Assembly (NCBI GenBank): GCA_951406725.2
Contig: OX597817.1
Coordinates: forward strand, 132,060,001-132,124,000
Direction of reading: 5' to 3'
Length of the DNA stretch: 64,000 nt
Origin: Octopus vulgaris
Lineage: Eukaryota
Of this stretch, positions 10,521-55,008 are shown piece by piece (the first letter of the stretch is position 1; each line of letters starts with the position of its first letter). The notes below the pieces were generated by a model. It was not told the origin of the DNA and made no database searches. It worked only from the letters and a program-made list of their open reading frames with translations. The position numbers were made by a program, and so were the translations under genes.

Positions 10521-10660
10521 GTCCCGGGTTGAGTCGGGGTTAACCACAGTAAATAAGGTACTCATTGCCAAAACTTATTTTGACAGCAAGCTTCCTGATG
10601 ATTTCTTTTGAATGAAACAGTTCTAGTCCTGTAGAAGCTCCTTCTATAAAATAAATACAT
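10521..10660 (+). mobile_element. Short HHR-bearing repeat, 5' part (putative non-autonomous Penelope-like derivative) between (TA)n tracts
   Basis: Shares gaaacagttctagtcctgtagaagctccttctata with 39827-39861; its first 44 nt are the reverse complement of 39891-39933. Confidence 0.65.
10589..10639 (+). ncRNA. Type I hammerhead ribozyme motif
   Basis: Stem I agcttc/gaagct (6 bp); core CUGAUGA (10595-10601); stem II ttc-tttt-gaa with a U-U closing mismatch; GAAA (10614-10617); stem III acag/ctgt; GUA triplet with predicted cleavage after 10633. Confidence 0.75.
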
Positions 10661-11479
10661 ATATAAATATATATATATATATACATATATATATATATAT
10701 ATATATATATATATATATATATATATATATATATATATATATATATATATATATATATACATAATGGAACCTTCGAAACGCGGAGTAGATAAAACAGGGG
10801 ACAACTGATGAAGGGATTGTTTTACGTGTTGCCCTTCTCGTTTCTTTATTTGTTTCTTTCATTGTTCGAAAAAAAGTACGTTTTCCGTGTTTTTGTTTTT
10901 TTATGTTCTCGTTTTTCATTTTGCTCACGTTTTTTGACGTCCTGTACCCATATATGCATGTATATATATATATATATATATATATATATATATATATATA
11001 TATATATATATATATATATATAATATATATATAGGTAAGTACATATATGTATATATATATATATATATATATATATATATATACATGCATACATACATAC
11101 ACACATATATAATATATATATACATATATGTGTATATATATTCATGAATGTATACATACACACACACATACACGTATATATATTTATGTGTATATATATA
11201 TATATATATATATACACTCACACACACACACATTAACAATTGTTACATTGGTTTGTATATACTTTCATGTATCATGTCTCTAGTGTTCTCTCTTCTCTCC
11301 TTCTTCTTTCTCTCTCTCTTTCTCTCTCTCTATTTCTCTCTCTGTTTCGACCGACGTGATTATTTATAACATACTTCCTGTTACTTCTATTCGCAGTATT
11401 GCACTTAATTATTATTTATTAATCAATTAGAAAATCCATTAGCGAAAACCTATTGTATATATATTGTTTGATATTTCAG

Positions 11480-11584
11480 GGTGTGTCAATTCATGTCGTC
11501 TCCTGGAATGATGGCAAAGACAATTATGCGCGTACCCAAACTAACTACAACCCCACCATGGTACAGACGAAGGTGTTTGCACAG
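11480..11584 (+). CDS. Internal coding exon of the same putative adhesion GPCR
   Basis: atatttcag| acceptor, |gtaagt donor; 105 nt, phase 0-0, no stops: GVSIHVVSWNDGKDNYARTQTNYNPTMVQTKVFAQ; in frame with both neighbours. Confidence 0.8.
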
Positions 11585-12665
11585 GTAAGTTTAATGTAGA
11601 TACACATGTTTAATCGATAACCGACGCTAAAGAGGCTCAGAGACATATCGTAGATGAATATGTGTGTATATGTGTGTGTGTGTGTGTGTGTGTGTGTGTG
11701 TGTTTGTGCAATAGATAAATAGGAATGTGCACTCAGTGTCTCTTCTTTTTCACATTCGTTTATCTCACTTTTAAATTTCTAATGTCGCATCCTGTTGCGA
11801 GGGTTATCTCCCTTTAAGACATTTGCCAGATATGCATCAGACCATGCTTCATGAAAACTGTACTCTCCTTATATAAGTCTGCGTGCTTTCGTTCTTTAAG
11901 GGTTTGAAGGCGACCAGCTGACAAAATCGTTAGCACACCAGGGCAAAATGCTTAGCGGCATTTCTCTGTAGTTTCTGAGTTCAATTTGCTCCTAGGTCGA
12001 CTTTACCTTTCACCCTTTCAGGTTTGATAACATAATTACTACCTAATCACTTGTGTTGATGAATTCAACTTACCCCCACCTAGTACCCATTGCAGACATG
12101 ACTCTTTAGGGGGTTGATAAAAATTTACCAATTAGGCGGAACTGTAAGATGCTGAACTGGAGGCCTTGCAGTATTCGTTCCTGCTTTTTTTTTCCCGTTC
12201 TGGGTTCAAATCTCGCAATGGTCTATATGGGTGGTAGGTTTAATTCGCTGACCAATTTAACAACATCTGGATATATAGGGGTCTTTTGATGAAGCTATTC
12301 TGTTGCCAGTTCTCGAAAAAGGTATCTGCTTAGAAAATACTTCCCCTAATAGCCCAATTAGGGAGCGAAGAAGCGATCTACCCAGGGCAATAATTTTATG
12401 GGGGCGGCATTTTTGGGATCTGCTGCAAAAGCTTGTATGGGCAACAAAATCAAGGCTTTCACCGAGGGGCACCCGCTCTAGCCACGTCACTATCTTCCCT
12501 CTCCTTTCTACTTCTTTTGGCGGCCCCGTAGAGGATCATGGCTGATACCTTCCCTCTTGTTTAAAAATATCCAAATACACAACCGACACCAAAACACTAC
12601 AATGATAGTCAGTATATTATTTATAACTCATTTCCTGGCATCAAAGTTGTCGTTCAGTTTTATAC

Positions 12666-13060
12666 GGGCATATGGCGTAGTGGTTAAGAGCGCGGGCTAC
12701 TAACTCAAGATTCTGAGTTCCATTCCAGGCAGCGACCTGAATAATAATAATAATAATAATAATAATAATAATAATAATAATAATAATAATAATAATGATA
12801 ATGATGATGATGATGATGATGATGATGATGATGATGATGATGATGATGATGATGATGATGATGATGATGATGATGATGATGATGATAATAATAACAACAA
12901 CAACAACAACAACGACAGCTACATCGAAAAATACCTTAGGAATGAGAACCCAGGTTCAAAATTTCCCCCAAGACACTTGATGAAAGCTGGAGGATATATC
13001 AGCCGAAAAATTGTGTTAACAACAAACAAGATGAGAACAAATATCCATCGAATGTAAATA
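12666..13060 (+). mobile_element. tRNA-headed SINE-like element (family D) with internal (AAT)(GAT)(AAC) microsatellite and a decayed hammerhead-like 3' part
   Basis: A box tggcgtagtgg and B-box-like gagttccattcc in the head (12666-12739); at 12972-13017 gacac-TTGATGA-a-agctg...cagcc-GAAA-aa-TT-gtgtt. Confidence 0.65.
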
Positions 13061-13164
13061 ACGTAAAGAATCTATGGTCACCGTTGTTACACACACACAC
13101 ACACACAAACACACACATACACACACACACATACATACACACACACACACAAACATACACACTG

Positions 13165-53167: not shown

Positions 53168-53201
53168 TTTTACGTTTCGAGCTTCCGCTCTTCGACAGAA
53201 A
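53168..53201 (-). ncRNA. Degenerate minimal hammerhead-like motif (core CUGUCGA)
   Basis: Minus strand: ttt-CTGTCGA-a-gagc-ggaa-gctc-GAAA-cg-TA-aaa; palindromic ACGT stem III, GUA site; A6 is U and stem I is only 3 bp. Confidence 0.4.
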
Positions 53202-53294
53202 GGAACACAGGAATAAAAAACAGAGAGAGAAAATAGAAAAGGGTTTAGTGGCTAGCGATCACTCATGGTGATATATATATATATATATATTCTT

Positions 53295-53937
53295 ATATTC
53301 TTTTACTTGTTTCAGTCATTTGACTGCAGCCATGCTGGAACACAGACTTTAGTCGAACAAATCGACACCAGGACTTATTCTATAGGTATCCTTGGCCGAA
53401 CTGCTAAGTTACGTGTACGTAAACACACCAGCATCAATTAAGTAATGGTGAGGCGACAAACACAGATACACAAATACACATGAGTGCGCACGCACGCACG
53501 CAAACACACACACACACACACACACACACACACATATATATATATATATATATATATATATATATATATATATAAATCAAAGGTAGGACAGAAAGAACGC
53601 AACAAACGGAAACCAACAAAGCACAACATGCGGAAAAATAGACGATAACACGAGCGGGAATCCGGACAAAACAAGATACAAAGTACAAATAAAATATGGT
53701 GTGTGTGCGTGTGTAAATATATATATATATACATGTTTGTATGTATGTATGTATTTGTGTGTGTGTGTATGTGTATATACGATGGCTTCTTTCAGTTTCC
53801 ATCTATCAAATCCACCCACAAGTCTTTGGTCGGCCCGGAGCTATAGTAGAAGACACTTGATCAAGGTGCCACACAGTGGGATCGAAACTGGAACCATGTT
53901 GTTGGGAAACAAGCTTCTTACCACACAACCACGCCTG
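53295..53937 (-). mobile_element. SINE family A copy with about 125 nt of unrelated sequence inside its microsatellite
   Basis: Both halves match family A; unrelated sequence at about 53575-53700 lies between TA/TG tracts. Confidence 0.75.
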
Positions 53938-54379
53938 TGACAATATATATTGACTTAAGATGTTGGTACAAGGCCAGCGAATTCAGAGGAGGGGGTAAGG
54001 CGATTACATCAACCCCAGTACACAACTGGTACTTATTTTCTCGACTCTGAAACGATAAAAAGCAAAGTCGACGCTCGTATAGTTTGACCTCAGAATGTTG
54101 AGACTGCCGAAAAGCCGTTTAGCATTTCGCTCGGCGTGATAACGATTCTGCCACATCGCCGTCTTATATGCACTTATATATTGACGGATAAACGGATTAA
54201 TTGATGTCTCCACAGACGGACAGATATTTATATATATATATATATATATATATATATATATGTGTATATATGTATATATATATATATATATATGTATATG
54301 TGTGTATATATGTATATATATATATATATATATATATATATATATATGTATATGTGTGTGTATATATATATATATATAA

Positions 54380-55008
54380 TTCTTTGTAAGCTTAATACAT
54401 GATCTGTCGGTGTCTTTTGCCGAACAGCGAAGTTACGCGGATGTAAACACACCAACATCGGTTGTCAAGCGATGGTGAGGGGACAAATACAGACACACAA
54501 ATACACGCACATACACACACACACACATATATATATATGCATATATATATATATATGCATATATATATATGTGTGTATATATATATATGTGTGTATATAT
54601 ATATATATATATATTATGACAACAAAGGAATGAATGAGACCTCGATATTATGTAAATAGAGGAATTTATCTATAGATATAATGTGTAACAATTAGTTAGT
54701 TGTCATAGTAAATCTCAGATTTCCGGATAACGTTTTTGTTTGTCTTAATAACTGATGAGATGCCTGAGCAGACTTTAGCGCGGACATCCGAAACTCTGAG
54801 TTTTATTATGACAACCAACTGTCACATAATATATATATACATATACGACGAGCTTCTTTCAGTTTCCGTCCACCAAATGCACTCACAGGGCTTTGGTCTG
54901 CCTGAGGCTACTGTAGAAAACACTTGCTCAAGGTGCCATGCAGTGGGACTGAACCTGGAACCATGCGGTTGAGAAGCAAGTTTCCTACTACACAGCCACT
55001 CCTGCTCC
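54380..55008 (-). mobile_element. SINE family A copy interrupted by an HHR-bearing fragment
   Basis: Family A halves at about 54380-54520 and 54845-55008; insert at about 54612-54828. Confidence 0.75.
54740..54814 (+). ncRNA. Minimal type I hammerhead ribozyme motif (Penelope-like)
   Basis: Stem I ttgtcttaataa/ttattatgacaa (11 of 12 paired); CUGAUGA (54752-54758); stem II gatg/catc extended by cc/gg; GAAA (54790-54793); near-palindromic stem III actc-t-gagt; GUU triplet. Confidence 0.7.

What the first reader, a model, noticed from the sequence alone, without database searches (positions are those of the whole stretch)
10521..54820. Repertoire of unrelated hammerhead ribozyme motifs in short microsatellite-embedded inserts
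Seen: five, possibly six, sequence-unrelated type I HHR folds (10589+, 12972+, 29438-, 53168-, 54740+, weak 20287-). Each lies in a short insert beside (TA)n or trinucleotide tracts, several have palindromic stem III, and two have inverted partial copies. The cores differ: CUGAUGA, GUGAACA, CUGUCGA, UUGAUGA, UUGAUAA. Established: Penelope-like elements (PLEs) carry minimal type I HHRs with palindromic stem III in their pseudo-LTRs and often show inverted ends. Inference: this genome holds many non-autonomous, ribozyme-bearing PLE or retrozyme-like families that target microsatellites, with covarying catalytic cores. No PLE RT or GIY-YIG ORF is visible in the window.
Basis: partly seen in the sequence, partly recalled or inferred. 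Interest (0 to 1): 0.82.

Follow-up and report, generated by a model that had tools for sequence, protein, structure and literature searches.

The report
Ribozyme-bearing ends of six Penelope retrotransposons
The six short inserts carry hammerhead-shaped RNA motifs and are the tail ends of six different Penelope-type jumping genes, each found attached to its parent gene elsewhere in this genome; this is a known kind of element, but three families carry unusual catalytic-core letters, one likely has a dead ribozyme, and one likely also spreads from a tRNA-like promoter.

Summary
All six motifs are real. Each belongs to a multi-copy repeat family with a type I hammerhead layout. Each family was found downstream of a Penelope-like (PLE) GIY-YIG endonuclease (EN) ORF elsewhere in the genome, at 2 to 23 loci per family. 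By linker motif, two are Hydra-type, two Neptune-type, one Penelope/Poseidon-type and one Nematis- or Neptune-like. So these are PLE pseudo-LTR ends, as described in 2014, not independent retrozymes.

Corrections: the UUGAUGA core at 12977 is decay in this copy (family C3). The trinucleotide tract there is internal to the element. Only four families end in (TA)n.

Extras: G3-C8, U6 and U3-A8/C13 cores are family-wide. The C13 family folds best with its core sequestered and is likely impaired. Short copies of three families share sharp 5' ends, suggesting defined RNA starts. One start is a tRNA-like head (2,926 exact matches), so that family looks SINE-like.

Cleavage and transcription were not tested. 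The scan has reported PLE hammerhead ends and the tRNA-headed element before on other DNA.

The parts
10521..10564 (-). F1 inverted arm: reverse complement of the family's distal 3' tail
   Evidence: the same 44 nt lie in opposite orientation about 30 nt downstream of the ribozyme in 7 of 30 loci and at window 39891-39933
10565..10650 (+). F1 3' end of a Hydra-type PLE; hammerhead 10588-10639, core CUGAUGA at 10595, predicted cut after 10633 (GUA); (TA)n on both sides
   Evidence: 49 of 51 copies intact; ORF link in L291 and L031
12666..12739 (+). F2 tRNA-like head with A-box- and B-box-like motifs (consensus recalled); follows the ORF stop in the autonomous element
   Evidence: 22 of 30 EN-selected loci; 2,926 exact pattern matches vs 0 control; not called by ARAGORN or Rfam
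12740..12915 (+). F2 internal (AAT)n/(GAT)n/(AAC)n tract, part of the element, not the target site
   Evidence: lies between head and ribozyme in 23 of 24 and 23 of 30 heads examined
12916..13068 (+). F2 3' end of a Penelope/Poseidon-type PLE; hammerhead 12972-13017, decayed in this copy (U3, stem III palindrome lost)
   Evidence: ribozyme within 1.5 kb of the EN in 21 of 30 loci
20164..20378 (-). F6 3' end of a Neptune-type PLE; hammerhead-like motif 20285-20325 with U3-A8, C13 and a weak stem I; (TA)n on both sides
   Evidence: ORF ends about 800 nt upstream in L187-L189
29312..29503 (-). F3 3' end of a PLE (Nematis- or Neptune-like linker); hammerhead 29438-29488 with G3-C8; lies in a (TAA)n tract
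   Evidence: ORF link in L337 and L339
39826..39933 (+). second F1 fragment, truncated inside the ribozyme, with the full 3' tail
42414..42970 (+). further truncated PLE unit: Hydra-type endonuclease C-terminus (42417-42566) followed by non-coding DNA, between two (TA)n tracts; no intact hammerhead found
   Evidence: tblastn 58% identity, E 1.75e-13; sequence; no hit in scan
53068..53266 (-). F4 3' end of a Neptune-type PLE; hammerhead 53167-53201 with U at position 6; (TA)n on both sides
   Evidence: 23 of 30 EN-selected loci; U6 in 96% of 89
54615..54733 (-). F5 inverted arm with the long 3' tail
   Evidence: the tail is seen in sense orientation in other loci
54734..54830 (+). F5 3' end of a Hydra-type PLE; hammerhead 54740-54814, canonical core at 54752, long stem I; (TA)n downstream

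Best explanation
The six inserts are the hammerhead-bearing 3' ends (pseudo-LTRs) of six distinct Penelope-like retrotransposon families, likely pasted in without their ORF by the parent element's reverse transcriptase and GIY-YIG endonuclease. Shown: family membership, attachment to endonuclease ORFs, inverted arms, optional 3' tails, and family-specific (TA)n flanks. Inferred, from PMC11167929 and the copy anatomy: the endonuclease nicks AT-rich DNA, with (TA)n chosen by families with a CxCx5C or Cx4CxxC linker. Reverse transcription starts at a fixed internal site downstream of the ribozyme and copies uncleaved RNA. It often stops at a defined RNA 5' end, at about -21 in F3, -55 in F6 and at the tRNA-like head in F2, or earlier at random. 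Fold-back or template switching then gives the inverted arm. The ribozymes would cleave only as dimers or with protein help, and are probably not needed for insertion; solo copies are expected to be largely inert.
For: ORF links. F4: 23 of 30 EN-selected loci. F2: head in 22 of 30 and ribozyme in 21 of 30. F6: 3 of 30 loci, with RVT_1 and GIY-YIG Pfam hits above cut-off. F1: 2 of 12 extended loci. F3: 2 of 8. F5: 4 of 30 same-strand, plus 2 in inverted arms.

Inverted upstream arms: 13/30 F1, 16/30 F2, 19/30 F6; 17 of 42 F3 arms.

(TA)4 within 40 nt of the 3' end: F1 25/30, F4 16/30, F5 20/30, F6 26/27, versus F2 0/29, F3 3/29 and background 621/7380.

Within the core, the common non-CpG variation falls at the free positions: N7 in F2 (U56/A42%), N7 and H17 in F4. 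Sharp 5' ends: 29 of 50 F3 arms at -20 to -23; 25 of 47 F6 arms at -54 to -59; 25 of 30 unselected F2 heads lack any upstream ORF end. All inserts span the predicted cut site.
Against: No cleavage or transcription data. Structure-only scanning is barely above chance. The links for F1, F3, F5 and F6 rest on 2-4 loci each. The EN tested for F5 and the F2 EN fragment gave no Pfam hit, and those of F3 and F4 were below cut-off; the F1 EN was not scanned. Clade names rest on linker motifs, not on a tree with references. F4 showed 0 of 30 inverted arms at first search. F3 has a cysteine-linker-like region but no (TA)n preference. Copies were chosen by similarity to the window copy, which under-samples shorter and older copies. 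F1, F4 and F5 show no sharp 5' end.
Confidence: 0.9

Rival explanations
1. The short units are self-propagating non-autonomous elements (pseudo-LTR-only, SINE-like) that carry their own internal promoter and are re-transcribed from solo copies. F2 would be a Pol III SINE carried by PLE enzymes. This is compatible with, and adds to, the best explanation.
For: F2 copies start at a tRNA-like head with A- and B-box-like motifs: 21 of 24 heads not chosen by EN and 25 of 30 unselected heads have no ORF end upstream. F3 and F6 have fixed 5' ends, both just after the same TCAG. Short copies far outnumber ORF-linked ones.
Against: The head is also an integral part of the autonomous element (22 of 30). 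It is preceded by a small palindrome that could simply stall reverse transcriptase. ARAGORN and Rfam do not call it a tRNA. No subfamily specific to short copies was tested.
Confidence: 0.45
2. The units are metazoan non-LTR retrozymes that spread through self-cleaved circular RNAs.
For: Type I hammerheads with palindromic stem III; one tandem array of F3 with a period of about 426 nt (L078).
Against: The window copies are solo, not tandem. Ends do not coincide with the cut site. All six families continue upstream into PLE ORFs. The L078 array has a broken stem I.
Confidence: 0.07
3. The hammerhead folds are chance matches in AT-rich repeats.
For: Descriptor hits and folding energies alone are near chance; Rfam gives no listed hit. 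F6 deviates at position 13 and in stem I.
Against: Five families keep the core at the expected place in PLE 3' ends. Core variation falls at N7 and H17, and the 3-8 pair is Watson-Crick in all six families in three forms.
Confidence: 0.03

Closest known systems
Minimal type I hammerheads in pseudo-LTRs of metazoan PLEs (Cervera and de la Pena 2014, PMC4209133; parts 1-2 of 4 of the text read, supplement searched by term)
   Same: Many unrelated consensus families per genome, mostly solo truncated copies, opposite-strand pairs, palindromic stem III, extra base before stem II, U3-A8 covariation, a few copies in full PLEs.
   Different: Family-wide G3-C8, U6 and C13 are not reported in the parts I read; Octopus is not named in the supplement text. 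Lunse et al. 2017 could not be read and may list such variants.
Hydra, Neptune, Nematis and Penelope/Poseidon clades of EN+ PLEs (Craig et al. 2021, PMC8557442; passages and section 11 read)
   Same: C-terminal GIY-YIG EN; CxCx5C linker in F1 and F5, Cx4CxxC in F4 and F6, none in F2; inverted 5'-truncated arms, optional tails, (TA)n bias tied to the linker.
   Different: These particular families were not matched to named entries; assignment is by motif only. F3 does not target (TA)n.
Poseidon element PAc of Anolis (Frangieh et al. 2024, PMC11167929; parts 1-2 of 4 read)
   Same: AT-rich target, internal start of reverse transcription giving the tail, uncleaved RNA as template; the engineered C3G/G8C double mutant partly cleaves.
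   Different: PAc has a canonical core; here G3-C8 is natural and family-wide, and F6 is likely impaired yet amplified.
Schistosoma SM-alpha SINE-like elements with hammerhead (seen only through reviews: passages of PMC6765202 and PMC8490949)
   Same: Pol III-type promoter followed by a type I hammerhead, as in F2.
   Different: SM-alpha works from tandem repeats; F2 is dispersed, has PLE-type inverted arms, and its head is embedded right after the stop codon of an autonomous PLE.
Animal non-LTR retrozymes (PMC7229834, passages; bioRxiv 10.64898/2026.07.22.740005, part 1 of 5)
   Same: Short non-coding units with a type I hammerhead, proposed to derive from PLE pseudo-LTRs.
   Different: Retrozymes are defined by tandem units with intact ribozymes; the window copies are solo or two-armed.

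Membership tests
EN+ Penelope-like elements | ORF with PLE-type RT and C-terminal GIY-YIG endonuclease upstream of the terminal repeat | tested here: met
   EN upstream on the same strand for all six families. Pfam RVT_1 above cut-off for F2 and F6; GIY-YIG above cut-off for F6, below it for F3 and F4, none for F2 and F5, F1 not scanned.
EN+ Penelope-like elements | Hammerhead motif in the pseudo-LTR near the 3' end | tested here: met
   deviant in F6
EN+ Penelope-like elements | 5'-truncated copies with inverted arm and optional 3' tail | tested here: met
   arms in F1, F2, F3, F5, F6; tails in F1 and F5; F4 0 of 30 at first search, single cases
EN+ Penelope-like elements | RT groups with PLEs in a phylogeny against reference elements | not tested
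   no reference sequences were fetched; only pairwise EN comparison
Hydra clade (F1, F5) | CxCx5C linker, no CCHH, insertion in (TA)n | tested here: met
   linker read in L291 and L318, no cysteine pair in the GIY-YIG spacer; (TA)n 25/30 and 20/30. RWK and DKT motifs not seen because the copies are truncated.
Neptune clade (F4, F6) | Cx2-5CxxC linker before the EN | tested here: met
   the motif is shared with Nematis, so the clade name is provisional
Penelope/Poseidon clade (F2) | C-terminal EN without zinc-finger linker | tested here: met
   translations, alignment
Hammerhead ribozyme (type I, minimal or dimeric) | Conserved core with Watson-Crick 3-8 pair, three stems, H17 not G | tested here: met
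   rule-intact copies (positions 6 and 13 ignored): F1 49/51, F2 48/78, F3 47/61, F4 64/89, F5 43/71
Hammerhead ribozyme (type I, minimal or dimeric) | Canonical A6 and A13, and a stable stem I, in F4 and F6 | tested here: not met
   U6 in 96% of 89 F4 copies; C13 in 97% of 49 F6 copies; F6 register with U3/U4 paired -4.3 vs +1.8 kcal/mol for the active register
Hammerhead ribozyme (type I, minimal or dimeric) | Self-cleavage at the predicted site | not testable with these tools
   no assay; only assembled contigs were available
Non-LTR retrozymes | Tandem units each with an intact hammerhead | tested here: not met
   window copies are solo; one F3 array among the first-search loci has a broken stem I
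tRNA-derived SINE (F2) | tRNA-related head with internal Pol III boxes at the 5' end of most copies | tested here: inconclusive
   5' ends pile up at the head and box-like motifs are present (consensus recalled), but ARAGORN and Rfam are negative
tRNA-derived SINE (F2) | Pol III transcription of solo copies | not testable with these tools
   no raw RNA reads offered

The most novel reading that the evidence does not exclude
The swarm of short ribozyme units is made by run-off reverse transcription from the PLE's internal start site to a defined RNA 5' end, so each pseudo-LTR behaves as its own SINE-like parasite. In F2 that start is a tRNA-derived Pol III promoter captured inside a Poseidon element, making a PLE-driven SINE. 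Alongside, G3-C8 and U6 are active natural hammerhead cores, while F6 is a lineage that lost ribozyme activity and kept spreading: a natural test that PLE hammerheads are dispensable.
Probability: 0.3. Interest if true: 0.6.

Novelty: new member of a known kind. Interest (0 to 1): 0.32.

Why it matters
The class is known, so the main result is annotation: many short 'unknown' or SINE-like islands between microsatellites in this genome are PLE ends. The useful part is a within-genome test set for two open questions. First, what PLE hammerheads are for: matched families with canonical, G3-C8, U6 and likely dead cores, and a related young family with about 100 near-identical endonuclease copies, many in open 775-876 codon frames, are available for assay. 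Second, whether the zinc-finger linker sets (TA)n targeting: four linker-bearing families target it and the linker-less one does not. If F2 is confirmed as Pol III-transcribed it would be a SINE carried by a PLE rather than a LINE.

Tried and rejected
Rfam E-value scan of the window was swamped by microsatellite-miRNA matches; 208 of 358 rows were not shown, so it is not a clean negative. The strict descriptor found nothing. The repeat finder returned only microsatellites. The inverted F1 pair 3 kb apart (L031) holds no long ORF, only an EN C-terminus. The intact ORF beside F4 in L190 belongs to another, younger family with its own U3-A8 ribozyme: no F1-F6 hit in the 1.5 kb downstream of 30 loci. 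The RT fragment upstream of F3 in L080 and the ORFs near F1 in L191 and L192 appear to be unrelated neighbours. The hit at 30478 is single-copy and was rejected.

Expression: no RNA holder listed on record; contigs laid cannot show ends or cleavage. They only showed variants at N7 and in loops II and III of F1, in unnamed organisms. No common first exon was found upstream of the F3 boundary, so splicing versus transcription start is unresolved.

Lunse et al. 2017 and Arkhipova et al. 2017 were not available. One of two supplementary files of PMC4209133 was not searched, and figure content is not held, so published core variants may have been missed. Statements that something was not found in print rest on searches only.
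Full report
Context. The window lies in a 2.8-Gb assembly of 227 contigs and is dense in microsatellites. I take it to be an octopus-like animal genome; that is inference from size and repeat content and was not tested.

Observation. All six motifs are in the sequence. 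I name them F1 (core position 3 at 10595+), F2 (12977+), F3 (29481-), F4 (53198-), F5 (54752+) and F6 (20321-). Structure alone is weak evidence. A relaxed descriptor gave 4 hits against a mean of 0.95 and a maximum of 4 in 100 local shuffles, and caught only F1, F3 and F5 plus a single-copy hit at 30478. Folding z-scores were -1.8 to +1.0. No hammerhead was among the 150 listed of 358 Rfam matches.

Families. Each site is a repeat family, with 497, 4939, 2675, 3511, 1861 and 1348 first-look candidates for F1-F6 in order; 40 were scored each and these are not copy numbers. The six queries did not hit each other in the window. Across 51, 78, 61, 89, 71 and 49 collected copies, which include inverted arms and were chosen mostly by similarity to the window copy, the cores are as follows. 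F1, F2 and F5 are canonical. The U3 of the window's F2 copy is decay (C in 89%). F3 has G3-C8 (93% and 90%). F4 has U6 (96%). F6 has U3-A8 (100%) and C13 (97%). Within the core, the common non-CpG variation falls where a hammerhead tolerates it: N7 in F2 (U56/A42%), N7 and H17 in F4. Outer stem I (F3, F4) and loops also vary. For F6, the register that pairs U3 and U4 into stem I scores -4.3 kcal/mol against +1.8 for the cleavage-competent one, so it is likely impaired.

Link to PLE ORFs. F6: in 3 of 30 loci an ORF with RVT_1 and GIY-YIG hits ends about 800 nt upstream, two of them with an inverted arm at the 5' side. F4: 23 of 30 loci chosen by the endonuclease, the query locus included, carry F4 downstream on the same strand. 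F2: of 30 loci chosen by the endonuclease DNA, query included, 22 have the tRNA-like head right after the ORF and 21 the ribozyme within 1.5 kb, with RT upstream in several. F1: RT plus EN 2.5 kb upstream in L291 and an EN end in L031, 2 of 12 extended loci. F3: 2 of 8 pattern-selected loci. F5: same-strand EN in 4 of 30 loci, a partial fifth, and inverted in 2. By the motifs given in PMC8557442 (passages and section 11 read), F1 and F5 are Hydra-type (CxCx5C; their ENs are 36% identical, E 4e-20), F4 and F6 Neptune-type (Cx4CxxC), F2 Penelope/Poseidon-type (no linker), and F3 Nematis- or Neptune-like. No tree with references was built. A related young family, 55% identical to the F6 EN, has about 100 copies 99-100% identical over the 200-residue query, many in open 775-876 codon frames, and its own U3-A8 hammerhead. 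The window itself holds a 150-nt Hydra-type EN remnant at 42417-42566.

Insertion anatomy. Inverted upstream arms occur in 13/30 F1, 16/30 F2, 19/30 F6 and 0/30 F4 loci. The F5 query already contained its arm (22/30), and the F3 summary line was cut from view, but 17 of 42 F3 arms have an inverted neighbour. The window's inverted pieces at F1 and F5 are reverse complements of the families' optional 3' tails. (TA)4 lies within 40 nt of the 3' end in F1 25/30, F4 16/30, F5 20/30 and F6 26/27, but F2 0/29 and F3 3/29, against a background of 621/7380. The trinucleotide tract at 12740-12915 is internal to F2.

Sharp 5' ends. 29 of 50 F3 arms stop 20-23 nt upstream of core position 3, and 25 of 47 F6 arms stop at 54-59. 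In both, the parent sequence reads TCAG at the boundary. In F3 it is preceded by a pyrimidine tract and looks like a splice acceptor (recalled consensus); only 3 of 42 unselected arms continue into it and no shared upstream exon was seen. The queries began near these points, which under-samples shorter copies but not longer ones. F1, F4 and F5 show spread-out ends. For F2, a 32-nt degenerate head pattern has 2,926 exact matches against 0 for the reversed control. Of the first 30, 23 have the ribozyme downstream, 20 an inverted arm, and 4 clearly plus 1 partly have the ORF end upstream; the script flagged 3, I read the other two by eye, and two pairs are duplicates. ARAGORN and Rfam do not recognise the head; 'tRNA-like' rests on A- and B-box-like motifs at tRNA spacing, from recall.

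Mechanism. Most likely (0.9) these are PLE pseudo-LTR ends inserted by the parent RT and endonuclease. PMC11167929 (parts 1-2 read) shows for an Anolis PLE that AT-rich DNA is cut, reverse transcription starts at internal sites that define the tail, uncleaved RNA is the template, and the ribozyme is protein-assisted and dispensable in vitro. Applying this here is inference. It fits the fixed 3' ends, the tails, and the fact that every insert spans its predicted cut site. Fixed 5' ends then suggest run-off to a defined RNA start, and the rival that short units re-transcribe themselves (0.45, strongest for F2) is compatible. Retrozyme-type circles (0.07) and chance (0.03) fit poorly.

Comparison with print. 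PMC4209133 (parts 1-2 read, supplement searched by term) already describes many unrelated minimal hammerhead families per animal genome, mostly solo truncated PLE ends, opposite-strand pairs, U3-A8, and low dimer-dependent activity. PMC3088659 (sections 8-9 read) lists natural U3-A8, A6C and a U10.1-U11.1 mismatch like that of F1. Natural family-wide G3-C8, U6 and C13 were not in the passages I read (searches; the one paper listed in 33 was seen as a listing only), but Lunse et al. 2017 was unavailable. A repeat annotation of Octopus vulgaris (PMC13282606, passages) lists active Penelope families and does not mention ribozymes. A Pol III promoter plus hammerhead has precedent in Schistosoma SM-alpha (review passages); searches found no paper on a PLE-mobilised SINE. 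Earlier notes of this scan reached the same PLE reading and noted the tRNA-headed element. I had both readings from my own calls before seeing them, and they are not independent support.

Verdict. Real, explained, and of a known kind; interest 0.32. The core variants, the likely dead F6 ribozyme and the defined 5' ends are testable extras.

Noticed in passing
L255-L260, L195-L224: Very young Neptune-type PLE family: about 100 copies 99-100% identical over the endonuclease region, open frames up to 847 codons and more, an upstream second frame, a 2-kb microsatellite-rich 3' region and a U3-A8 hammerhead; a candidate active element for assays.
   Followed up: partly
window 42414-42970: Truncated Hydra-type PLE unit between two (TA)n tracts, starting in the endonuclease C-terminus; a core-like heptamer near 42855 without a matching second core block.
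   Followed up: partly
L078 (G000:C27:32597176-32600363): Tandem array of at least six F3 units plus captured flank, period about 426 nt, with a broken stem I.
   Followed up: partly
L189 3900-4080 and 7590-7800: The DNA outside both arms of this F6 insertion is itself an inverted duplicate, as if flank was carried with the element.
   Followed up: no
L192 880-1050 and three other loci: A family related to F4 in stem II and stem III but with canonical A6, which suggests U6 arose within this group.
   Followed up: partly
window 29024-29200 (-) and (TAA)n at 29232-29311: Short frame resembling the C-terminus of an R4/Dong-type LINE (motif recalled; no Pfam hit) beside the trinucleotide tract that hosts F3.
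   Followed up: partly
window 11481-11585 (+): 105-nt open stretch between AG and GT, a possible host exon, which would make nearby inserts intronic; no Pfam hit.
   Followed up: partly
window 44992-45423 (-) and 57987-58409 (+): Frames resembling a restriction-like LINE endonuclease and a mariner transposase fragment (motifs recalled; the first had no Pfam hit, the second was not scanned).
   Followed up: no
L194 7130-7185; L080 upstream of F3; L002 and L108: Further hammerhead-like ends of other PLE families; the repertoire is larger than six.
   Followed up: no
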